Source of the DNA: a virus
IMG/VR virus record: IMGVR_UViG_3300020041_000050
Coordinates: 1 to 5,990 of that record
Reading direction: 5' to 3' (one strand)
DNA: 5,990 nt
The notes under the pieces are model-generated. The model ran no database searches, had not been told where the DNA came from, and saw only the letters and a program-made list of their open reading frames with translations. Below, piece by piece: positions 1 through 5,990 of this stretch. Within the stretch, counting starts at the first letter, position 1. Each line of letters starts with the position of its first letter. The position numbers and the translations under genes were made by a program.

Positions 1-75
1 CGGACAAATATGTTACTGTAGATGGAAAACTTACACCTTTATCTTGCCTCCTCCAACATCGCCGTTATACGCGAA
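1..75. repeat. Terminal redundancy: exact copy of 5916..5990, marking the closure point of a circular 5,915-nt genome
   Basis: Base-by-base comparison shows cggacaaatatgttactgtagatggaaaacttacacctttatcttgcctcctccaacatcgccgttatacgcgaa at both ends. The Rep reading frame runs through the junction without interruption. Confidence 0.97.
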
Positions 76-494
76 AATTCGTATCTGCTGGCGTTGGTGA
101 TTTTCTTGGTTATATGCCTCGTCCTTCTGCTCGTGTTTCGTCGTGGTCTTACTTCGATTGTAAGAAGAATATCGATTATAACTACACGATTCCTCGATAC
201 TACCTTAAATACCTTAAACCGGAAGACGAGGTTATGCGTTCGATTGCCGCTGCTGATGCTTATGCACATTTTAGCAAGTCTTCTCTGGTTAAGCGTATTG
301 TGTCTTTGTGTGTTGAGCGGTTCAATCTCAATTCCGCCGTATCCCGTAGAGCGTCGTATGTTTGGGAGCAGAAGCAATTAATGCGTTTCTCTGCGTCCTC
401 TCGGAGGTTGCCCGACTTTGACCCTCCTACTTGGCTAGATCAAGATATTCTCCAGTTTTGGAGAGATCATTATAAACTTCAACTAATTATTTAA
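1..494 (+). CDS. VP4: Replication initiation protein (VP4 / gene A-like), C-terminal part. It continues from 5339..5915 across the circular junction. The first complete codon in the window starts at nt 3 and the TAA stop is at 492..494.
   Basis: The frame is open from nt 3 (DKYVTVDGKLTPLSCLLQHRRYTRKFVSAGVGDFLGYMPRP...) and is in phase with the ORF that leaves the window at 5990. The length 577 nt + 494 nt = 1071 nt is 357 codons. The listed ORF 114..494 is only the Met-to-stop tail of this frame. Confidence 0.9.
   Translation, partial: DKYVTVDGKLTPLSCLLQHRRYTRKFVSAGVGDFLGYMPRPSARVSSWSYFDCKKNIDYNYTIPRYYLKYLKPEDEVMRSIAAADAYAHFSKSSLVKRIVSLCVERFNLNSAVSRRASYVWEQKQLMRFSASSRRLPDFDPPTWLDQDILQFWRDHYKLQLII
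201..218 (+). repeat. Perfect 9-nt tandem duplication (taccttaaa x2) inside rep, encoding YLK-YLK
   Basis: Direct reading shows taccttaaa at 201..209 and again at 210..218. It is in frame with Rep (RYYLKYLKP). Confidence 0.9.
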
Positions 495-497
495 TTT

Positions 498-2297
498 ATG
501 GGAAAACAACCTTTTATTTCACACGTCGTAAATGGTTACTCTCGCTACGATGTTCCTGAGAGTAAAGCCTTTACGTGTACGCCGGGTATTTTATATCCGG
601 TGCGGATTGATCTTATTAATGCTCGGGATCGCGTATCTATTGAGCAGGGGATCGATGTTCGGAGTAACCCGCTTGCTGTTCCGACGTTTAATCCTTATAC
701 CGTTCGCTTGCATCGTTTCTGGGTGCCTCTCCAGCTGTACCATCCCGAGTTGCGGACGAATAGTAGTAAGTTCGACATGAACAATTTGAGTCTTAATTGG
801 ATTGTTTCCTGTCAGCCTCAAACGGGTGGTTTGAATATTGATTTTTTCGGTGCAGCTTATACTAATTCGCTGATGTCTTGGTTGCGTATCGCTAATAAAT
901 ACACTACTGGTGTAACCTCTGTTCCTTCGTCCGTGTCCCTTCCCGCTAATTCTTCTATGGATCGCTGGAGTAATGCGGATTCGTATTTAGCCTATTGGGA
1001 TATTGTCCGCAATTACTATAGTTATTCGCAGTGGGGAGTTTACTCTTTCGCTTGGCCCATGGCTAACAAACTTTGTTATTCTGGTTCTGCGTATTCCCTC
1101 GATCCCGATAATTCTGGAGACTCTCGCTTTTTTACACAGTGTTTCGGAAATCTTGAGTTCCTTGATGCTTACTTTGAGAGTCAATTTTATCCGTCATCTT
1201 TAACTTCTACGAATAATACTTTTAATCGCGGTAATTTATTCACGCAGATAATTCGTTCTGACCTGGATAATGGTGCTGCTTCCGGCGATGGTTTTCCCGT
1301 TTCTACAACCCTCCCGTCTACTACTCTTTGGGGTTCAACTGGTATTCTTTCCCAGACTTTGACTACCACTTCTTCTACGGGCAATGCTTCTGTTTCCTAC
1401 TTCGTTACGGCGCATCCTATGGCCGTATGCCCTTCGAATCCCGATCGTTTTAGTCGTCTTATTCCCACTGGCGCTAATTCTGCTGTATCTATGACGGGTG
1501 TGTCTACCATTCCTCAGTTGGCTATTGCTTCTCGTCTTCAGGAGTACAAGGATTTGCTTGGTGCTGGAGGTAGTCGCTATAGTGATTGGTTGGAAACGTT
1601 CTTCGCCTCCAAGATTGAGCATGTTGATCGTCCGAAACTCCTTTTCAGCGCCTCGCAGACTGTTAATGTGCAGATTGTTATGAATCAAGCTGGGGATAAT
1701 AACTTTTCTGGTAATCAACCCCTTGGACAACAAGGTGGTTCTATTGCTTTCAATGAGCGTTTAGGTCGTCGCCAGTCTTATTACTTTCGTGAGCCTGGTT
1801 ATATGATTGATATGTTAAGTATTCGCCCTGTTTATTATTGGTCTTTTATTAAGCCGGACTATCTTAACTATACGGGTCCTGACTACTTTAACCCTATCTA
1901 TAACGATATTGGATATCAAGACGTTCCTGCTTTTCGTCTTGCTTTTAACGGCAATCCTGGGGCTTCATTTGCCACCGAGCCTTGTTTTAACGAGTTTCGT
2001 TCTTCTTATGATGAGGTATTAGGTCAGCTCCAGGCTTATAGTAGGCCGGAAGCTGAAGGTGGGTCTGGAATCCCTCTCTACTCTTATTGGATTCAGCAGC
2101 GTACTGTTTATACTTATAGTGGAACCGGCTCTCTTCCTGAGGCTAGTTATTATCCTCTTCTTTTCGTTGATTTGGCTCAGGTTAATTCTCCTTTTAAGTC
2201 AAATGTTGAGGATAATTTCTTTGTGAATATGTCTTACGCCGTCCAGAAGAAGAGTCTCGTTAATAAAACCTTCGCGACTCGTTTGTCTAATCGTTAA
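498..2297 (+). CDS. VP1: Major capsid protein (Microviridae VP1 / F-like), 599 aa
   Basis: This is the longest ORF. It carries motifs typical of microvirus capsid proteins. The N-terminal GILYPVRIDLINARDRVSI...NPYTVRLHRFWVPLQLY follows the G.L.P...PGD...FFVP.R..W pattern. SRLQEYKDLLGAGGSRYSDWLETFF (nt 1530..1604) follows LQ...E..aRgGsRY.E....F. EPGYMIDMLSIRP is also present. The ATG lies 3 nt after the rep stop. Confidence 0.93.
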   Translation: MGKQPFISHVVNGYSRYDVPESKAFTCTPGILYPVRIDLINARDRVSIEQGIDVRSNPLAVPTFNPYTVRLHRFWVPLQLYHPELRTNSSKFDMNNLSLNWIVSCQPQTGGLNIDFFGAAYTNSLMSWLRIANKYTTGVTSVPSSVSLPANSSMDRWSNADSYLAYWDIVRNYYSYSQWGVYSFAWPMANKLCYSGSAYSLDPDNSGDSRFFTQCFGNLEFLDAYFESQFYPSSLTSTNNTFNRGNLFTQIIRSDLDNGAASGDGFPVSTTLPSTTLWGSTGILSQTLTTTSSTGNASVSYFVTAHPMAVCPSNPDRFSRLIPTGANSAVSMTGVSTIPQLAIASRLQEYKDLLGAGGSRYSDWLETFFASKIEHVDRPKLLFSASQTVNVQIVMNQAGDNNFSGNQPLGQQGGSIAFNERLGRRQSYYFREPGYMIDMLSIRPVYYWSFIKPDYLNYTGPDYFNPIYNDIGYQDVPAFRLAFNGNPGASFATEPCFNEFRSSYDEVLGQLQAYSRPEAEGGSGIPLYSYWIQQRTVYTYSGTGSLPEASYYPLLFVDLAQVNSPFKSNVEDNFFVNMSYAVQKKSLVNKTFATRLSNR

Positions 2298-2309: not shown

Positions 2310-2606
2310 ATGGCACTTGATTGGTTACTTGAAGATACTCCCGCTTATGTTTCTCGCGGTCAGCGTATCCTTTCCGTTCTTGATGGTTCTGGTTCTGTCG
2401 ACGTCCTCCCCGGTCGTCCGGATGTAGCAGCTGAACCCTCTGACTTTGAGAAAGGAGAGAAGTATAATCCTGATATTGATTTCGACCCTAATTCCTTCTC
2501 TCGTATGGATAAGTTTGACGGTCTCGAAGTAGGCCAAGAACTTATTGATTCAATGATAGATAGGAGTAAGGCTGACTCGAAGTCTACTGATTCTGAAGAA
2601 AAATAG
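2310..2606 (+). CDS. Hypothetical acidic protein, 98 aa; possible internal scaffolding protein (VP3-like) judged only by position and charge
   Basis: The ORF begins 12 nt after the VP1 stop. By hand count it has 23 D/E versus 11 K/R. No motif was recognised. It is not in the composition-driven +1 frame of another gene. Confidence 0.6.
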   Translation: MALDWLLEDTPAYVSRGQRILSVLDGSGSVDVLPGRPDVAAEPSDFEKGEKYNPDIDFDPNSFSRMDKFDGLEVGQELIDSMIDRSKADSKSTDSEEK

Positions 2607-2638
2607 TACATTCTTTACTTGACGATATATGTTACGTG

Positions 2639-2655
2639 CGCGGACCCCTTCCGCG
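2639..2655 (+). other. Perfect 6-bp GC-rich hairpin (cgcgga-cccct-tccgcg) inside a GC-rich island of about 74 nt (2636..2709)
   Basis: Positions 2639..2644 are the reverse complement of 2650..2655, with a 5-nt loop. An alternative long-range pairing exists between tgcgcg (2637..2642) and cgcgca (2704..2709). The island is about 62% GC by hand count, clearly higher than the flanking sequence. Confidence 0.45.
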
Positions 2656-2739
2656 AGAGTCCGTGAATCGCTGAAGGTTATTGGTAACGACTGCGGGAGA
2701 GGTCGCGCATTTTTCTATCGTTCTTTAAATTTTATTCCT

Positions 2740-2931
2740 ATGTCTGATACTAAACAACCCTTCTATAAGTCGAAAGCTTTTTGGACGCTTGTTTCTTCTA
2801 TTGTTGCTGCTTTAGCTGCCTTTTTTCTTTCCTCGTGTTCTGCCCAGGCTAGGATGCAGCGTAGCGGCGTTCATGTCGATACTGTTCGTGTTGACTATAT
2901 TATTCGTTCTAATAATTTAACCCATATATAG
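2740..2931 (+). CDS. Small putative lipoprotein, 63-aa precursor and about 31-aa mature peptide; function unknown
   Basis: The sequence is MSDTKQPFYKSKAFWTLVSSIVAALAAFFLSSCSAQ.... It has a Lys-rich n-region, a 16-residue hydrophobic h-region, and the lipobox L-S-S-C (nt 2827..2838, Cys codon 2836..2838). The stop lies 1 nt before the VP2 ATG. An upstream ATG at 2629 would add 37 Arg-rich residues but would read through the GC hairpin island. Confidence 0.55.
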   Translation: MSDTKQPFYKSKAFWTLVSSIVAALAAFFLSSCSAQARMQRSGVHVDTVRVDYIIRSNNLTHI

Positions 2932-2932
2932 T

Positions 2933-4309
2933 ATGCCTATTCCTATTGCTGCCGCTGGTGCCGGCGCGTCTTTTGGTCGCGCTCTTGGCGAATCTGCTGC
3001 TTCTACTGGCACTCACGGTTTAATTAACGGCTTCTTAGGCCAACTTTTTGGTGGAATGAATGCTCGCCGCCAATGGCGATTTCAACAAAAGCAGATGAAG
3101 CTTCAGCAGCAGTATGCCCTAGAGCAGATGCAGAGGCAGTCTGAGCTCTCCTACGCTAATTGGCAAAAACAATTTGATTATGAAAACGCGTACAATGATC
3201 CTTCGAAGGTTTTTGACCGTTATTTGAAAGCAGGCGTAACACCTGCTGCTGTTTTAGGCTCTTCTGGAGTTGGCGTTAATGCTACCATGTCGGGCGGTTC
3301 TGCGTCCTTGCCTTCTGCCTCTGGTCCTTCGGGCGGTGCCCCGGTTAGTCCCGGCGCTTTTACGCCTGGCGACCCCACCGCTATCGCGCAGAATATGATT
3401 GCGCAGTCTACGGTAAGCCGTAACGATGCTGCTGCTAATCGCGATAACGCCGAGGCCCGGTCGATTAATGATCAAAATGTTGGCAATCAGCTTTATGCTG
3501 CTCAAGCCCGGGCTCGTATAGCCCTTGATGAGGCAGTAGCAAAACATAATTTAGCTGCTCATGATGTTCTTCGAGTTCAAGAGGATATAGAAAAGAACAA
3601 TCGATTTATTTCTGATACTACCCTTTTGAGTGTCATTGATGAAAAGAAGAATCAGGCAGCCCTTGTCGCTGAGGAAGTTCGCCGCTTGAATATTGAGAAT
3701 GAAAATATAGGTGCTATTATGTCTGCTCAAGCTTTCATGATGAATACTCAGGCCGCTCTTAATCAAGTTCTTGGCGAACAAGCTAGCGAAGTCATAGAGT
3801 CCTTGCGTTTAAATAATCTCGACACTGCTAATGAGCTCGCACGTAATTGGGACAAGCGTTTCGATATCGAAATTCCGAATCCTCAGTATTCAGAAAATCT
3901 TAGGAGTAAAAATCCTATTACCCGTGCAAATCCCGGCCCTAAGACTTTCAAAATTTCAATGTCGCTTAAAGACTTTCACGATAAAACTATTATAAACGAA
4001 GCGAACGCATCTGATTTTCTTCCTGAGCAAGCCCGTATTGCCCTTCGCAATGCAAAGGTTGATCCATATGTCGAAATCTCTAAGGCTTTAATTGGTGTGG
4101 CCGCTAGTGTTGCCGGTGCAGGTATAATTCGCGGCGGCATGGCTCGTGCTTCTAAGACTATCTCTGCCGGCGGTTCTACCAGTGATTCTGCTGGCTCTTC
4201 GCTTACAACTCGTTACGACTCGAAAGGAAATCTCGTTGGTTATGCGAAGACGGAGATGACACGCGGCACTCATTCGAGTTCGTATAATACTACTCGAAGA
4301 TATCCTTAG
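2933..4309 (+). CDS. VP2: DNA pilot / minor capsid protein (Microviridae VP2 / H-like), 458 aa
   Basis: The N-terminus is Gly/Ala-rich (MPIPIAAAGAGASFG...GFLGQLFGG) and is followed by a Gln-rich helix. YENAYNDPSKVFDRYLKAGVTPAAVLG (nt 3179..3259) matches the YNSP..Q..R...AG.NP motif of microvirus VP2 proteins. A Gly/Ser/Pro linker and a long predicted coiled-coil stretch follow. Size and position after the capsid block also fit. Confidence 0.82.
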   Translation: MPIPIAAAGAGASFGRALGESAASTGTHGLINGFLGQLFGGMNARRQWRFQQKQMKLQQQYALEQMQRQSELSYANWQKQFDYENAYNDPSKVFDRYLKAGVTPAAVLGSSGVGVNATMSGGSASLPSASGPSGGAPVSPGAFTPGDPTAIAQNMIAQSTVSRNDAAANRDNAEARSINDQNVGNQLYAAQARARIALDEAVAKHNLAAHDVLRVQEDIEKNNRFISDTTLLSVIDEKKNQAALVAEEVRRLNIENENIGAIMSAQAFMMNTQAALNQVLGEQASEVIESLRLNNLDTANELARNWDKRFDIEIPNPQYSENLRSKNPITRANPGPKTFKISMSLKDFHDKTIINEANASDFLPEQARIALRNAKVDPYVEISKALIGVAASVAGAGIIRGGMARASKTISAGGSTSDSAGSSLTTRYDSKGNLVGYAKTEMTRGTHSSSYNTTRRYP

Positions 4310-4379: not shown

Positions 4380-4685
4380 ATGAAAAAAAACAAAAATTCC
4401 AAAACCGGCAAGCTGGTGATCGATGTTCTAGAGTACGCATTTGTTGAGTGGCTTGTTCGCCGGCGAGTGTATCGTGCTTATCAGTCGAATTATGATCGCT
4501 CTCCTTCGGCTTCAAAAACCTTCCGAGAGCGTTTGCGCGAGCACATCCAGTATCTTCTTAATCACTCTAATCTTGGCCCCGAATCGTTAATTTCTTCGGC
4601 TTTCCTGTTTACATCTGCTCCCGAGGGTTATAGATTTTGGCAGAAGCTCTCTGATGATTGGGAGCGCTTTTACAACGATCTGTAG
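4380..4685 (+). CDS. Hypothetical protein, 101 aa
   Basis: This is the first ORF downstream of the candidate promoter. It has a Lys-rich N-terminus (MKKNKNSKTGK) and a C-terminal aromatic motif AFLFTSAPEGYRFWQKLSDDWERFY (nt 4599..4673). It does not overlap any larger gene. Confidence 0.65.
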   Translation: MKKNKNSKTGKLVIDVLEYAFVEWLVRRRVYRAYQSNYDRSPSASKTFRERLREHIQYLLNHSNLGPESLISSAFLFTSAPEGYRFWQKLSDDWERFYNDL

Positions 4686-4707
4686 GAAAAAATTAAATTA
4701 CATCATT

Positions 4708-5031
4708 ATGACACAAGTTCATGTTGTTATTCGCCGTGTCAATCCGGCTCTTAATGTCGATTTTGTTCAGGTAGGCTATGTTAAAGATGGACAATTTTCG
4801 GCGCTTCAACTCAGCACTCTTGACTGTACACCCATCCCTGATTATGTAGAGCTTTCTAGTATCTCTACTACACCTCACATTAATCATAGCCTCATTCCTA
4901 GTCTCGTGGAGGCTTTGATTGCGTATCCTGACTTTTCGGTCGATTTTTTCGACAATACGCTCGTTTTAATGTTTAGCACTGATCTGACTCGCGATGAAGG
5001 CACGTCGAAAGAAGAAGGGAAAGGGAACTAA
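4708..5031 (+). CDS. Hypothetical protein, 107 aa, acidic C-terminal tail
   Basis: The ORF track gives 4654..5031. The ATG at 4708 (MTQVHVVIRR...) is preferred because 4654 would overlap the preceding ORF by 32 nt. No motif was recognised. Confidence 0.55.
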   Translation: MTQVHVVIRRVNPALNVDFVQVGYVKDGQFSALQLSTLDCTPIPDYVELSSISTTPHINHSLIPSLVEALIAYPDFSVDFFDNTLVLMFSTDLTRDEGTSKEEGKGN

Positions 5032-5048
5032 AGTAGTTACCCGCCCGC

Positions 5049-5339
5049 TTGGTGGAAGAGTTCTTTAACTCGTTAGTCCTGCGGGAGGAAAATCTCTCGC
5101 AGGCTTTTTCTTTAAGTATTGAGCAATATTTTCAAATTATGGATAATTTCGATTTTAGGCCTAGATTCTCCCCTATTTTTAATGGTGTCTCTCATCGTTA
5201 CTCTATTGGCGCATATCGTGGCAGAAAGCGAGTTCCTATCGCTTGGTTTGTTGACGAAAGTTCTGCGAAAGACTATCTTGCTCGTTGTCGCCGTACCAAC
5301 CCTTATATTAAGTTTGATTGCCTTAGAAGTCTTTTTTAA
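5049..5339 (+). CDS. Small basic hypothetical protein, possibly DNA-binding. The start is uncertain: TTG 5049, GTG 5052 or ATG 5139, giving 96 to 66 aa.
   Basis: The frame is open from 5037. The C-terminal 66 aa have about 13 K/R versus 6 D/E. GVSHRYSIGAYRGRKRVPIAWFVDESSAKDYLARC resembles an AP2-type strand-strand-strand-helix pattern. The TAA stop at 5337..5339 overlaps the rep ATG at 5339..5341. Confidence 0.5.
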   Translation: MVEEFFNSLVLREENLSQAFSLSIEQYFQIMDNFDFRPRFSPIFNGVSHRYSIGAYRGRKRVPIAWFVDESSAKDYLARCRRTNPYIKFDCLRSLF

Positions 5340-5990
5340 TGGCTTGCTCATCTCCCATATGGATACGAAATCGCCGTTATTTTGACAAGAAAAATCCTTG
5401 TCGTAATGGTTCTGATGTCGCTAAGTCTGCACTCGCTCTTCGTCCCTGGGATGTCTGCCGTCAATGGTTGATGGTCCCATGCGGACAGTGTGAAGACTGC
5501 TTGCGTCGTCAGCGCAATGATTGGTTCGTCCGATTGGAGCGCGAGTTGACCTGTTGTAAAGCTAATAGCCAGCAGGCTATTTTTATTACAATTACAATTG
5601 CCCCAAAGTATTATAATGAGGCGCTACTTAACCCTTCTCGATTCATTCGTCGCTTCAATGAGCGTTTGCGACATAAGCTCGGCCATTCGTTTAAGCATGC
5701 TTTCTTCCAAGAGTTTGGCACACATCCTGAAATGGGAAATGAACCTAGATTGCACTTTCACGGCTTTCTCTTTGGCACAAACGTCCTTTACAATACTATT
5801 CGTACTGCTGTTCGAGACCTTGGTTTTGTCTGGCTGTCGAAGGCTACTCACAAGCGCGCTCGATATTGCGTCAAATATGTTACTAAGCAAATTCAATTTA
5901 ATCCCGAAGAGATTTCGGACAAATATGTTACTGTAGATGGAAAACTTACACCTTTATCTTGCCTCCTCCAACATCGCCGTTATACGCGAA
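5339..5990 (+). CDS. VP4: Replication initiation protein (VP4 / gene A-like, HUH rolling-circle endonuclease), N-terminal part. It runs off the window and continues at nt 1..494.
   Basis: My own translation from ATG 5339 gives MACSSPIWIRN...PCGQCEDCLRRQRNDW (Cys cluster, 5480..5500). RCR motif I is IFITITI (5579..5599). The HUH motif is LHFHGFLF (HFH at 5753..5761). The two-Tyr catalytic motif is YCVKYVTK (5864..5887). The ORF has no stop in the window, so it is missing from the supplied ORF track. Confidence 0.93.
   Translation, partial: MACSSPIWIRNRRYFDKKNPCRNGSDVAKSALALRPWDVCRQWLMVPCGQCEDCLRRQRNDWFVRLERELTCCKANSQQAIFITITIAPKYYNEALLNPSRFIRRFNERLRHKLGHSFKHAFFQEFGTHPEMGNEPRLHFHGFLFGTNVLYNTIRTAVRDLGFVWLSKATHKRARYCVKYVTKQIQFNPEEISDKYVTVDGKLTPLSCLLQHRRYTR
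5872..5932 (+). repeat. 13-nt exact direct repeat caaatatgttact at 5872..5884 and 5920..5932 (the second copy is also 5..17), spaced 48 nt apart and in frame
   Basis: Read directly from the sequence. Both copies encode KYVT in the Rep frame, at residues 179-182 within the catalytic YCVKYVTK and again at 195-198 in SDKYVTV. Confidence 0.9.
5916..5990. repeat. Terminal redundancy: exact copy of 1..75
   Basis: Identical 75-nt string at both window ends. Confidence 0.97.

What the first reader, a model, noticed from the sequence alone, without database searches (positions are those of the whole stretch)
2740..2931. Microvirus-encoded small lipoprotein between the capsid and pilot genes: candidate lysis or superinfection-exclusion factor
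The 63-aa ORF has a complete signal peptidase II type signal. It has a Lys-rich n-region, the hydrophobic core WTLVSSIVAALAAFFL, and the lipobox LSSC, which leaves a mature acylated peptide of about 31 aa (CSAQARMQRSGVHVDTVRVDYIIRSNNLTHI). It sits in its own slot rather than in the composition-driven +1 frame of a bigger gene, and it abuts the VP2 start. Outside the phiX174 group (gene E), the lysis functions of most microviruses are unknown. No peptidase or endolysin-like ORF is visible here. In other phages, small lipoproteins act as outer-membrane spanin subunits (Rz1 type) or as receptor-blocking exclusion factors (T5 Llp, Cor). A lipoprotein in a 5.9-kb ssDNA phage would therefore be an unusual accessory function.
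Basis: partly seen in the sequence, partly recalled or inferred. Interest (0 to 1): 0.7.

Follow-up and report, generated by a model that had tools for sequence, protein, structure and literature searches.

The report
Conserved small lipoprotein gene in gut microviruses
A tiny single-stranded-DNA gut phage, probably of Bacteroidales bacteria, carries a real and strongly conserved gene for a 31-residue lipid-anchored peptide that most likely acts on the host cell envelope, making it a directly testable candidate for the unknown lysis (or superinfection-exclusion) function of these phages.

Summary
Bases 2740-2931 encode a 63-aa protein with a Lys-rich n-region, a hydrophobic core and the lipobox LSS|C. 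It passes the PROSITE lipoprotein rule; the 100-aa version does not.

It is a real gene. Across 84 distinct homologous coding sequences, dN/dS is 0.06 with synonymous sites near saturation. An intact small lipoprotein gene fills this slot at 114 of 117 evaluable sites that carry the conserved upstream element.

The 37-codon N-terminal extension is not coding. It is a conserved, covarying hairpin followed by a T-run.

Homologues sit in microvirus prophages of Alistipes chromosomes. There the capsid and replication proteins are only 24-29% identical to the window's, but the mature peptide is 78% identical. A motif D-[TS]-φ-x-φ lies exactly 15 residues from the lipidated Cys across diverged classes. 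No acidic surface-export signal follows the Cys, so the peptide should face the periplasm. Some relatives are about 200 aa, with a C-terminal hydrophobic segment and basic tail (u-spanin-like layout).

Function is unresolved. I favour a lysis or egress effector (about 0.4) over superinfection exclusion (about 0.3). A conserved overprinted two-TMD ORF inside VP4 (22-381) is a rival lysis candidate.

The gene matches no Pfam, NCBIfam or PHROG family. One nr record already calls a homologue "lipoprotein".

The parts
2740..2931 (+). Small lipoprotein gene (63 codons plus stop), the true coding sequence
   Evidence: ORF listing and sequence. Intact in all 90 loci examined first. dN/dS 0.06 over 84 distinct sequences. 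AT-rich start context without a Shine-Dalgarno motif, like the other genes of the genome.
2740..2835 (+). Signal peptide, residues 1-32: n-region MSDTKQPFYKSK, h-region AFWTLVSSIVAALAAFF, lipobox residues L30-S31-S32
   Evidence: PROSITE PS51257 rule passes. Mean Kyte-Doolittle hydropathy of the h-region is 1.85. dN/dS of this part is 0.043. A second, different signal-peptide type carries the same mature peptide in other lineages.
2827..2838 (+). Lipobox L-S-S-C; Cys33 (2836-2838) is the predicted lipidation and cleavage site
   Evidence: The Cys is invariant in alignments A1, A2 and A4. Lipobox tally over the family: LSSC 108, LASC 85, LTSC 27, MSSC 9, and others.
2836..2928 (+). Predicted mature lipopeptide, 31 residues: CSAQARMQRSGVHVDTVRVDYIIRSNNLTHI
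   Evidence: D-T-V-R-V-D-Y-I-I-R-S is invariant across 41 diverse family members. The peptide is 78% identical to Alistipes prophage copies whose VP1 and VP4 are 24-29% identical. No acidic residues at +2 to +5, so no Bacteroidetes surface-export signal (PMC6222051).
2878..2892 (+). Core motif D47-T-V-R-V51, i.e. D-[TS]-φ-x-φ at position +15 from the lipidated Cys
   Evidence: The same spacing (+15) holds in type-1-like cluster representatives below 50% identity. The spacing is +18 in type-2 peptides and +19 in the single type-3 peptide (L222). 47 of 54 scorable sequences carry the motif.
2613..2726 (+). Conserved structured intergenic element upstream of the gene: long imperfect hairpin GTGCGCGG...CCGCGCA followed by TTTTTCTATCGTTCTTT
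   Evidence: MFE fold -39.6 kcal/mol, z = -2.2. 7 of 26 consensus pairs show compensatory changes in 37 sequences. A divergent relative keeps the closing stem through changed bases. No Rfam match.
2629..2739 (+). In-frame 37-codon 'N-terminal extension' of the 100-aa ORF: not coding, part of the structured element
   Evidence: No codon periodicity: entropy 0.215/0.216/0.28. The upstream in-frame open length varies from 1 to 171 codons, with a stop 4 codons upstream in about a third of loci. Insertions split it from the lipoprotein ORF in MG945813 and MG945784.
2933..4309 (+). VP2 (DNA pilot protein), starting one base after the lipoprotein stop
   Evidence: PHROG 8689 pilot protein, E = 3e-5. 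Only 30-42% identical among clade members that keep the lipoprotein core unchanged.

Best explanation
Bases 2740-2931 are a real, strongly selected gene for a prolipoprotein.

Proposed pathway, inferred from the lipobox and the established Lgt/LspA pathway: the 63-aa precursor is exported by Sec, diacylglyceryl-modified on Cys33, cleaved between Ser32 and Cys33 by signal peptidase II, and N-acylated. It has no acidic lipoprotein export signal, so the 31-residue mature peptide should stay on the periplasmic side of the envelope of a Bacteroidales host (an Alistipes-like bacterium).

The lipid anchor and a 13-residue tether would present an invariant strand-like segment (G-V-H-x-D-T-V-R-V-D-Y-I-I-R-S) to a conserved host envelope partner. 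This binding step is inferred.

The gene lies just downstream of a conserved hairpin plus T-run and abuts VP2. This suggests low-level co-expression with the pilot protein (inferred).

The consequence I consider most likely is loss of envelope integrity, which would make this the phage's lysis or egress effector. Functional analogues would be the small colicin-release (BRP) lipoproteins or the lipoprotein arm of a spanin.

Shown: gene reality, lipoprotein-type signal, conservation, distribution, host clade. Inferred: processing, localisation, partner binding. Hypothesis: the lysis phenotype.
For: Gene reality:
- dN/dS is 0.06 with pS 0.62; the other frames give 2.4-2.9.
- The ORF is intact in 90 of 90 loci.

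Lipoprotein signal:
- The PS51257 rule passes.
- The Cys is invariant, and position -1 is always S, G or A.

Near-universal retention, as expected of an essential function:
- 114 of 117 evaluable sites with the upstream element carry an intact small lipoprotein gene in the slot.
- The three exceptions are one frameshift and two deletions that also remove the 5' end of VP2.
- Two further GenBank relatives also have one.

No endolysin-like gene:
- Nothing in Pfam or PHROGs for the called ORFs.
- No M15 motif in any fetched locus.
- By contrast, the cultured B. fragilis microvirus phiHBP1 and some Alpavirinae carry M15 peptidases (PMC13064476; PMC3394797).

Conserved host-facing target:
- The mature peptide is 78% identical between lineages whose VP1, VP4 and VP2 are 24-29% identical.
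- Synonymous sites differ throughout that core (read).

Host:
- Homologues lie in microvirus prophages in the Alistipes montrealensis chromosome and an Alistipes MAG.
- More lie in metagenomic contigs beside RelA/SpoT, HIT and ZnuA genes.

Relatives with a lysis-protein layout:
- About 30 cluster representatives are 170-220 aa. They have the same N-terminal module plus a C-terminal hydrophobic stretch and basic tail. This is the layout that defines unimolecular spanins (PMC6139136).

Small lytic lipoproteins are an established kind: colicin lysis proteins and entericidin B (own knowledge).
Against: - No experiment bears on function.
- A second conserved envelope protein exists. This is an overprinted 119-aa ORF with two hydrophobic helices in the +1 frame of VP4 (22-381). 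It is open in 166 of 183 relatives, and VP4 wobble-site entropy drops to 0.40-0.65 across it, against 1.03-1.19 in the first two-thirds of VP4 (5339-5915) and 0.90 in the last stretch after the ORF (379-491). It fits the usual profile of single-gene lysis proteins better than a lipoprotein does. To my knowledge no phage single-gene lysis protein is a lipoprotein.
- The slot holds at least three alternative mature peptides behind a near-identical signal peptide. Such cassette-like variation is more typical of specificity or exclusion functions.
- The gene is carried by prophages, near the left end in the same orientation as an upstream HTH gene. That suits a lysogen-expressed function.
- There is no Pfam match to colicin lysis, Rz1 or phiX174 E families.
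- The AF2 monomer model is uninformative.
Confidence: 0.4

Rival explanations
1. Superinfection exclusion or entry block. The periplasm-facing lipopeptide binds a host outer-membrane receptor or its energising partner from inside, as T5 Llp and Cor do with FhuA, or it blocks DNA delivery, as the lipoprotein Ltp does. It would protect infected or lysogenic cells from further microvirus infection. One specific version is that the D-T-V-R-V strand mimics a TonB box and jams the TonB / TonB-dependent-transporter axis.
For: - The known phage-encoded small lipoproteins that are not spanins are exclusion factors (own knowledge).
- The slot holds alternative mature-peptide types behind the same signal peptide.
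- The gene is present in Alistipes prophages near the prophage end, co-oriented with the flanking HTH gene.
- It sits between VP1 and VP2, the two proteins in which host-range mutations arise in the Bacteroides microvirus phiHBP1 (PMC13064476).
- The missing export signal places it on the periplasmic face.
- The conserved ORF 22-381 could supply lysis.
- The motif D-[TS]-φ-x-φ sits at a fixed distance from the anchor and resembles TonB-box pentapeptides such as ETLTV of colicin M. TonB-box sequences are described as flexible (PMC11658791).
Against: - Exclusion genes are usually patchy, yet this one is retained at 114 of 117 sites in a 5.9-kb genome.
- The mature core is invariant while VP1 (63-88%) and VP2 (30-42%) diverge within the clade and fall to about 25% between lineages. 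It therefore does not track the receptor-binding proteins.
- No sequence match to any Pfam family, which would include Llp or Cor families if Pfam holds them.
- The TonB-box resemblance is a short motif in a T/V/D-rich peptide and was not tested against Bacteroidales TonB boxes.
Confidence: 0.3
2. Another envelope role that is neither lysis nor exclusion. Examples: helping the pilot protein or the DNA cross the envelope, modulating burst size (as phiX174 K does), or altering outer-membrane or vesicle properties.
For: - Tight juxtaposition with VP2, one base between stop and start.
- Long relatives end in a basic tail, RRGGRRGKPRPKxKxIPLGGSHL. This resembles the C-terminal part of phiX174-group J proteins (own knowledge), hinting at links to virion or DNA functions in those lineages.
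Against: - A Sec-exported, lipid-anchored peptide is separated from cytoplasmic assembly.
- The peptide does not co-vary with VP2.
- In other lineages the gene is not next to VP2.
Confidence: 0.17
3. The hydrophobic N-terminus is an uncleaved membrane anchor rather than a signal peptidase II signal. The product would then be a small bitopic inner-membrane protein, and the membrane helix itself could be the active part, as in phiX174 E.
For: - Within the clade the signal-peptide region is under even stronger purifying selection than the mature part (dN/dS 0.043 against 0.082). F14, W15 and the AAL..FF pattern are conserved across mature-peptide types.
- Some type-2 copies have the atypical lipobox LESC, which fails the PROSITE rule.
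Against: - The Cys is invariant and always preceded by S, G or A in every class.
- An unrelated signal-peptide type carries the same lipobox and mature peptide. This makes the mature peptide, not the helix, the shared unit.
Confidence: 0.08
4. Chance ORF produced by the T-rich composition, with no function.
For: Lipobox-type ORFs arise by chance in about 9% of random genomes of this composition. One non-conserved example exists in the window at 655-780.
Against: dN/dS of 0.06, threefold codon periodicity, intact ORFs in hundreds of diverged genomes, and conservation across microvirus lineages.
Confidence: 0.01

Closest known systems
Colicin lysis / bacteriocin release proteins (BRP; Pfam Lysis_col)
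   Same: A very small prolipoprotein with a mature lipopeptide of about 30 residues. A single gene could suffice to breach the envelope. It is carried by a minimal replicon (own knowledge for BRP properties; size and lipobox here).
   Different: No sequence similarity: no Pfam hit at E <= 1. BRPs are plasmid genes of Enterobacteria and act partly through outer-membrane phospholipase A. The host here is Bacteroidales, and no lysis phenotype is shown.
Spanins: o-spanin Rz1 and unimolecular spanin T1 gp11
   Same: Phage-encoded outer-membrane-type lipoprotein signal. Long relatives (170-220 aa) add a C-terminal hydrophobic anchor, which is the u-spanin layout (PMC6139136). Having short and long homologues in one family fits the o-spanin-to-u-spanin route that the spanin survey called speculative.
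   Different: - No holin or endolysin cassette and no dedicated i-spanin partner.
- The mature peptide is not Pro-rich and has no periplasmic Cys for the disulfide typical of two-component spanins.
- The C-terminal hydrophobic stretch of the long forms is only 11-17 residues.
- The middle of the long forms is overprinted on a better-conserved frame.
T5 Llp and Cor (phi80, N15, HK022) exclusion lipoproteins
   Same: Small phage lipoproteins expected to act at the periplasmic face of the outer membrane. The gene lies next to host-range determinants (own knowledge for Llp and Cor).
   Different: The mature parts of Llp and Cor are roughly twice as long and folded. There is no sequence match. The gene here is essentially universal in its clade and unchanged across lineages with very different capsids.
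phiX174 protein E and other single-gene lysis proteins
   Same: A small envelope-targeted protein in a microvirus that lacks an endolysin.
   Different: E is an overprinted, uncleaved membrane protein that inhibits MraY from within the inner membrane. This gene has its own slot and a lipobox, and shows no match to any Pfam family, the phiX174 E family included. The overprinted ORF 22-381 is the closer analogue of E or K.
PADLOC candidate defence protein PDC-M02A
   Same: Weak, repeated profile matches (E 0.003-0.02) to the lipobox plus about 30 following residues. Three PDC-M02A model variants were hit by three family members.
   Different: The matches cover only positions about 11-64 of 167-186-residue profiles and are near noise. 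The long forms do not match further. The function of PDC-M02A is itself unknown.

Membership tests
Bacterial signal peptidase II lipoproteins (PROSITE PS51257 rule) | Lys or Arg within the first seven residues | tested here: met
   K5.
Bacterial signal peptidase II lipoproteins (PROSITE PS51257 rule) | Uncharged hydrophobic core followed by the lipobox {DERK}6-[LIVMFWSTAG]2-[LIVMFYSTAGCQ]-[AGS]-C | tested here: met
   AALAAF-FL-S-S-C matches. 87 of 90 short forms from related loci also pass.
Bacterial signal peptidase II lipoproteins (PROSITE PS51257 rule) | Cys between positions 15 and 35 of the precursor | tested here: met
   Cys33 in the 63-aa form. The 100-aa form (Cys70) fails. The clade with the longer signal peptide has Cys38 and fails on position only.
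Bacterial signal peptidase II lipoproteins (PROSITE PS51257 rule) | Actual lipidation and globomycin-sensitive cleavage | not testable with these tools
   Needs expression, labelling and globomycin. SignalP and LipoP are not available here.
Bacteroidetes surface-exposed lipoproteins | Acidic lipoprotein export signal just after the Cys: CS(D/E)2, K-(D/E)2 or Q-A-(D/E)2 | tested here: not met
   Positions +2 to +6 are SAQAR, SAQAK, AAQAR, SATAK and similar, with no acidic residue. Signal definition from PMC6222051.
o-spanin (Rz1 type) | Outer-membrane lipoprotein signal | tested here: met
o-spanin (Rz1 type) | Paired i-spanin gene (N-terminal TMD, periplasmic coiled coil), embedded, overlapping or adjacent | tested here: not met
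   No such dedicated ORF. The adjacent VP2 matches the pilot-protein PHROG and has an N-terminal Gly/Ala-rich hydrophobic region, but it does not co-vary with the lipoprotein.
o-spanin (Rz1 type) | Part of a lysis cassette with holin and endolysin | tested here: not met
   No endolysin or peptidase by Pfam or PHROGs or by M15 motif scan.
Unimolecular spanin (T1 gp11 type) | N-terminal lipoprotein signal plus C-terminal transmembrane domain in one polypeptide | tested here: not met
   The window's 63-aa protein has no C-terminal hydrophobic segment. About 30 long homologues in other lineages do have one, 11-17 residues followed by a basic tail. Definition from PMC6139136.
Colicin lysis proteins (Pfam Lysis_col) | Sequence membership in the family | tested here: not met
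   No Pfam family at E <= 1 for the 63-aa protein.
Colicin lysis proteins (Pfam Lysis_col) | Small lipoprotein with a mature peptide of about 27-35 residues | tested here: met
   31-residue predicted mature peptide. The BRP size range is from my own knowledge.
phiX174 E (Pfam Microvir_lysis) | Sequence membership; overprinted on another gene | tested here: not met
   No Pfam hit. The gene has its own slot, and the alternative frames show no selection.
Llp / Cor exclusion lipoproteins | Sequence membership | tested here: not met
   No Pfam, NCBIfam or PHROG match.
Llp / Cor exclusion lipoproteins | Blocks a TonB-dependent receptor and excludes phages | not testable with these tools
   Needs a cultured phage-host pair.

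The most novel reading that the evidence does not exclude
The mature peptide is a lipid-tethered TonB-box decoy. A 13-residue tether would hold the strand D-T-V-R-V (D-[TS]-φ-x-φ, at +15 from the lipidated Cys in type-1-like classes, +18 or +19 in the other types) at the periplasmic face of the outer membrane. There it would pair with the C-terminal domain of TonB, or with the plug of a TonB-dependent transporter. That would shut down TonB-dependent uptake, and with it the entry of competing phages. Such a phage strategy has not been described. The same family also holds short (o-spanin-like) and long (u-spanin-like) homologues.
Probability: 0.1. Interest if true: 0.85.

Novelty: new variant of a known kind. 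Interest (0 to 1): 0.62.

Why it matters
Outside the phiX174 group, how microviruses lyse their hosts is unknown, except where an M15 peptidase hints at an endolysin (PMC3394797; PMC9239249). These phages are among the most abundant in vertebrate guts.

This work provides a concrete, short, highly conserved gene that can be synthesised and tested in Bacteroides or Alistipes for lysis, exclusion and lipoprotein processing. It also provides a second candidate to test alongside it, the overprinted ORF inside VP4.

If the gene is the lysis effector, it would be the first lipoprotein-type single-gene lysis protein in a phage. It would also point to a conserved, exploitable weak spot in the Bacteroidales envelope. 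If it is an exclusion factor, it would show that even 6-kb phages keep such a gene almost without exception.

The family also links diverse gut microviruses to Alistipes as hosts. It shows a gene shared between microvirus lineages that otherwise share almost no sequence, although such exchange has been reported to be rare (PMC9239249).

Tried and rejected
- **The 100-aa reading (ATG 2629).** Rejected. There is no codon periodicity. The upstream open length is variable, with frequent stops. Insertions split it from the gene. The PROSITE rule fails. The region is a covarying hairpin.
- **Pfam, NCBIfam and PHROGs.** Nothing significant for the 63-aa protein, its variants or the long forms.
- **PADLOC.** Only weak hits to PDC-M02A, covering the lipobox plus about 30 residues. 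Kept as a lead, not as evidence.
- **Rfam.** Nothing for the window or for the second inserted hairpin element.
- **AlphaFold2 monomer with a 41-sequence alignment.** It gave one long helix at pLDDT 70, with 60-68 in the mature part. This was judged uninformative, so no fold search was run.
- **Apparent fusion to VP2 in four GenBank records.** This is an annotation artefact. The VP2 feature was extended upstream in another frame over a separate lipoprotein ORF.
- **M15 peptidase motif scan.** It found only two spurious hits in host DNA.
- **A hit in a Pelagibacteraceae MAG (L091; 34% over 80 aa).** Not followed up; probably spurious.
- **Literature searches.** Searches for microvirus lipoproteins, lipoprotein single-gene lysis proteins and microvirus accessory genes found no description of this gene.
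- **Reading the long forms as simple read-through junk.** Rejected, because about 30 clusters below 50% identity keep the frame open and share a conserved C-terminus. However, their middle part is better conserved in the +2 frame, so they are overlapping genes.
Full report
**What the window is.** The window is a complete circular microvirus genome of 5915 nt, assembled with a 75-nt terminal redundancy. All genes lie on the + strand:

| Feature | Coordinates | Evidence |
|---|---|---|
| VP4 (replication initiator) | 5339, across the junction, to 494 | |
| VP1 (major capsid) | 498-2297 | PHROG 514, Pfam Phage_F; |
| Acidic 98-aa ORF | 2310-2606 | |
| Intergenic region | 2607-2739 | |
| Flagged ORF | 2740-2931 | |
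| VP2 (pilot protein) | 2933-4309 | PHROG 8689; |
| Three small ORFs | 4380-5339 | |

The nearest GenBank relatives are unverified Microviridae genomes from pig, deer, civet, dog, rodent, lemur and tortoise faeces.

**Check of the observation.** I coded the PROSITE PS51257 lipoprotein rule. The 63-aa form passes with Cys33. The 100-aa form fails because its Cys is at position 70.

A lipobox ORF is not rare enough by itself. Random sequences with the same dinucleotide transitions yield 0.1 per genome. The window also has a second, composition-driven hit in the +1 frame of VP1. The case therefore rests on comparative evidence.

**It is a real gene, and the 63-aa form is the gene.**
- A pattern-plus-tblastn scan of IMG/VR found 188 loci. 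I examined 80 of these, seven GenBank records, two Alistipes genome loci and the window itself, 90 loci in all. All 90 keep the ATG, the Cys and the frame.
- Over 84 distinct 63-codon sequences, synonymous sites are nearly saturated (pS 0.62) while pN is 0.075. That gives dN/dS of 0.06, against 2.4-2.9 in the two other frames.
- Entropy at codon positions 1/2/3 is 0.25/0.13/1.08.
- The 111 nt upstream, in the frame of the 100-aa ORF, show no periodicity (0.215/0.216/0.28).
- The in-frame open stretch upstream of the ATG varies from 1 to 171 codons. About a third of loci have a stop only four codons upstream.
- In MG945813 and MG945784 an insertion separates the upstream "MLRARTP..." ORF from the lipoprotein ORF, which keeps its own ATG.
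- The start context of ATG 2740 is AT-rich and lacks a Shine-Dalgarno motif, like that of every other gene here. This fits a Bacteroidetes host (own knowledge).

**What lies upstream.** Bases 2613-2726 form a long imperfect hairpin whose closing stem, GTGCGCGG/CCGCGCA, is followed by TTTTTCTATCGTTCTTT.
- The fold energy is -39.6 kcal/mol with z = -2.2.
- In 37 sequences, 7 of 26 consensus pairs show compensatory changes, mostly in the inner stems.
- A more distant relative keeps the closing stem with different bases.
- Rfam has no match.

By analogy with phiX174, I read it as a leaky terminator or transcript-stabilising hairpin that sets the expression of the lipoprotein and VP2 below that of VP1. 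It could instead be a complementary-strand origin. This was not tested.

**How widespread and how obligatory.**
- A protein search found 367 homologues. The best 120 are all the mis-called 100-aa form, and one nr record names it "MAG TPA: lipoprotein [Microviridae sp.]".
- GenBank phage records hold it in 32 microviruses. There it is labelled hypothetical, left unannotated, or swallowed by an over-extended VP2 feature.
- To test for loss without bias, I searched IMG/VR for the invariant 22-mer at the end of the upstream hairpin and asked what follows it.

| What follows the hairpin (119 occurrences) | Count |
|---|---|
| This lipoprotein (type 1) | 103 |
| Same signal peptide, different mature peptide (type 2: CTARHYVVQSASSIKSGDTTRTTITYEQIGNFKRP) | 10 |
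| A third small lipoprotein (L222) | 1 |
| Frameshifted copy | 1 |
| Deletion that also removes the 5' end of VP2 | 2 |
| Too truncated to judge | 2 |

So 114 of 117 evaluable sites carry an intact small lipoprotein gene. Two further GenBank relatives with the hairpin also carry type-2 genes. A lipid-anchored peptide of about 30 residues is therefore a fixed feature of this clade, while its sequence comes in a few alternative classes.

**Host and spread across lineages.**
- Scans of one genome per bacterial species gave two confirmed hits, both in Alistipes. Each lies in an integrated microvirus with VP4, VP1 and VP2.
- Metagenomic contigs show more such prophages at one chromosomal site, between RelA/SpoT-HIT-HTH_3 and ZnuA or other host genes. 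Their gene order is 49 aa, lipoprotein, 65 aa, 111 aa, VP4, VP1, 100 aa, VP2.
- Against these prophages, the window's VP1 is 24-29% identical, VP4 is 27%, and VP2 is 25% or undetectable. The lipoprotein is 60-75% identical and its mature part 78%.
- Comparing by eye, the shared core differs at synonymous sites throughout. This looks like old divergence under strong constraint, or old transfer, rather than recent transfer.
- A second signal-peptide type carries the same lipobox and mature peptide.
- Within the window's own clade, VP2 is only 30-42% identical while the peptide core does not change.

The conserved unit is therefore the mature peptide. It tracks something in the host, not the phage's own variable proteins.

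**Anatomy of the mature peptide.**
- In 41 diverse members, C33, G43 and D47-S57 (DTVRVDYIIRS) are invariant.
- A profile search of 1.84 billion representatives found 66 clusters.
- When these are aligned on the lipobox Cys, the motif D-[TS]-φ-x-φ sits at exactly +15 in type-1-like classes that are otherwise hardly alignable (for example CATSTTLTVRGAQVDSLDF and CGTQFKFSARQIVVDSLVL). It sits at +18 in type-2 peptides and at +19 in the single type-3 peptide. 47 of 54 scorable sequences have it.
- Positions +2 to +6 never carry the acidic residues of the Bacteroidetes lipoprotein export signal (PMC6222051). The peptide is therefore predicted to face the periplasm.
- AlphaFold2 gave a low-confidence single helix for the whole precursor. 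I take this to mean the short peptide has no autonomous fold.

The picture is a lipid anchor, a 13-residue tether and a short strand-like recognition element. That suggests strand pairing with a partner at a fixed distance from a membrane. This step is inference.

**Long relatives.** About 30 of the 66 clusters are proteins of 170-220 aa, built as follows:
1. The same N-terminal module.
2. A poorly conserved Ser/Thr/Pro/Leu-rich middle.
3. An 11-17-residue hydrophobic stretch.
4. A conserved basic tail, RRGGRRGKPRPKxKxIPLGGSHL.

They lie directly upstream of VP4, for example at L095 3490-4083 and in the Alistipes montrealensis prophage. In the middle part the +2 frame is the better conserved one (BLOSUM62 local scores of, for example, 180 against 113 and 70 against 36) and is itself almost free of stops. 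This looks like two overlapping genes.

[quoted passage not shown] That paper notes that no u-spanin had been found to resemble an o-spanin. This family contains both a short and a long form. The window's gene is the short form, and no tail motif is encoded in the window or in any other fetched locus except the A. montrealensis prophage.

**Function.** Nothing computed here can decide it.

For lysis or egress:
- The gene is almost never lost.
- It is under strong constraint.
- No endolysin-like gene occurs in any lipoprotein-bearing locus, whereas other Bacteroidales microviruses carry M15 peptidases.
- Some relatives have the u-spanin-like layout.
- Small lytic lipoproteins are an established kind (colicin release proteins, entericidin B; own knowledge).

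For exclusion:
- The known non-spanin phage lipoproteins are exclusion factors.
- The slot shows cassette-like replacement of the mature peptide.
- The gene is carried by prophages near one end.
- It sits between the two host-range proteins.
- A better-fitting lysis candidate exists elsewhere in the genome.

That rival candidate is ORF 22-381, in the +1 frame of the 3' part of VP4. It encodes 119 aa with two strongly hydrophobic helices. It is open in 166 of 183 relatives, against 10-59% for other alternative-frame ORFs. Across it, VP4 third-position entropy falls to 0.40-0.65, from 1.03-1.19 in the first two-thirds of VP4 (5339-5915) and 0.90 in the last stretch (379-491). Gene callers have almost never reported it.

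My rough weighting of the evidence leaves lysis slightly ahead: about 0.4 for lysis or egress, about 0.3 for exclusion, and the rest for other roles.

**A specific idea worth testing.** The shared motif resembles TonB-box pentapeptides: [DE]-T-φ-x-V, for example ETLTV in colicin M (PMC11658791). TonB-box sequences are described as flexible, and TonB-box peptides have been designed to target TonB (abstract of PMC9841981, seen). A decoy tethered at the periplasmic face could block TonB-dependent transporters, which Llp and Cor also target. I could not test this. The motif is short and the peptide is rich in T, V and D, so I give it about 0.1.

**Comparison with what is known.** The protein meets every sequence feature of a signal peptidase II lipoprotein that I could test. 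It is not a sequence member of any curated family in Pfam, NCBIfam or PHROGs. It fails the defining context of Rz1-type o-spanins: no i-spanin and no holin/endolysin cassette. The short form lacks the C-terminal anchor of u-spanins. It resembles colicin release proteins in size and kind only. Full-text searches found no description of a lipoprotein gene in microviruses. The global survey of microvirus accessory genes mentions only methyltransferases, peptidases and unassigned small peptides.

**Verdict.** This is a real and well-supported feature. It is a new variant of a known kind (phage-encoded small lipoproteins) in a phage group where none has been described. Its function is unresolved, but it is short, conserved and easy to test. 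Interest: 0.62.

Noticed in passing
window 22-381 (+), inside VP4: Overprinted 119-aa ORF in the +1 frame of VP4, with two strongly hydrophobic helices (LLALVIFLVICLVLLLVF and LLMLMHILASLLWLSVLCLCVL). It is open in 166 of 183 relatives. VP4 wobble-site entropy falls to 0.40-0.65 across it, against 1.03-1.19 in the first two-thirds of VP4 (5339-5915). Only 5 database proteins match it and there is no family hit. It is a candidate E/K-like or holin-like gene.
   Followed up: partly
window 2613-2726: Highly conserved structured intergenic element: a long hairpin with covarying inner stems, then a T-run and the invariant sequence CTATCGTTCTTT. No Rfam family matches. It may be a leaky terminator or a complementary-strand origin.
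   Followed up: partly
L017 3034-3142 and about 25 other loci (e.g. L004, L018, L023, L027): A second hairpin-rich insertion of about 95-105 nt (…TTGTGGCGAGGTGACGCATTTCGCGGTTCGGAGAACCGCCCCGAACGAAGTGAGGGTGCGGCACCG…) sits between the conserved element and the lipoprotein ATG in a subset of genomes. MFE is -35.7 kcal/mol and there is no Rfam match. It looks like a small mobile or regulatory element.
   Followed up: partly
window 1-75 and 5916-5990: The first and last 75 bases are identical. The contig is a circular genome of 5915 nt with an assembly overlap, and VP4 (356 aa) runs from 5339 across the junction to 494.
   Followed up: yes
L095 3490-4083; L088 7977-8585; L092-L094, L097, L098, L116: Long (about 192-202 aa) lipoprotein ORFs directly upstream of VP4. 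Their middle overlaps a better-conserved +2-frame ORF of about 130 aa. Their C-terminal tail, RRGGRRGKPRPKxKxIPLGGSHL, resembles the basic tail and hydrophobic end of phiX174-group J DNA-binding proteins (own knowledge). This may be dual coding or an internally initiated J-like peptide.
   Followed up: partly
L159, L160, L198, L206, L211, L224, L236, L260, L263, L270, L273, L274; L222: Alternative small lipoproteins occupy the same slot. Type 2 has the same signal peptide with the mature peptide CTARHYVVQSASSIKSGDTTRTTITYEQIGNFKRP, and some copies have the atypical lipobox LESC. The type-3 mature peptide is CAVSYSVRVINTCPDGSVDSTAIYIKSSARKVP. VP2 N-terminal types mix independently of lipoprotein type, which suggests recombination at this junction.
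   Followed up: partly
L088, L275, L277, L279 (and L089): Microvirus prophages recur at one chromosomal neighbourhood in Alistipes-like genomes, downstream of RelA/SpoT - HIT - HTH_3 and next to ZnuA/ABC or formate/nitrite-transporter genes. Different microvirus lineages use the site, which suggests an integration hot spot.
   Followed up: no
window 655-780 (+), inside VP1: A 41-aa ORF in the +1 frame of VP1 (MFGVTRLLFRRLILIPFACIVSGC…) also passes the lipoprotein rule. The enclosing alternative-frame ORF is open in only 45 of 137 relatives, so it is a composition artefact.
   Followed up: yes
MG945683, MG945498, MG945680, MG945716 (L272 1490-3115): In MG945683, the GenBank 'similar to VP2' feature starts at an upstream ATG in another frame and so covers the separate lipoprotein ORF. 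This is an annotation artefact. The other three records show the same 'similar to VP2' label over the lipoprotein match but were not inspected.
   Followed up: yes
window 2310-2606: The acidic 98-aa ORF just after VP1 is among the best-conserved proteins within the clade (60-88% identity) and has no family match. By its position it is probably the internal scaffolding (VP3-like) protein suggested for Alpavirinae (PMC3394797).
   Followed up: no
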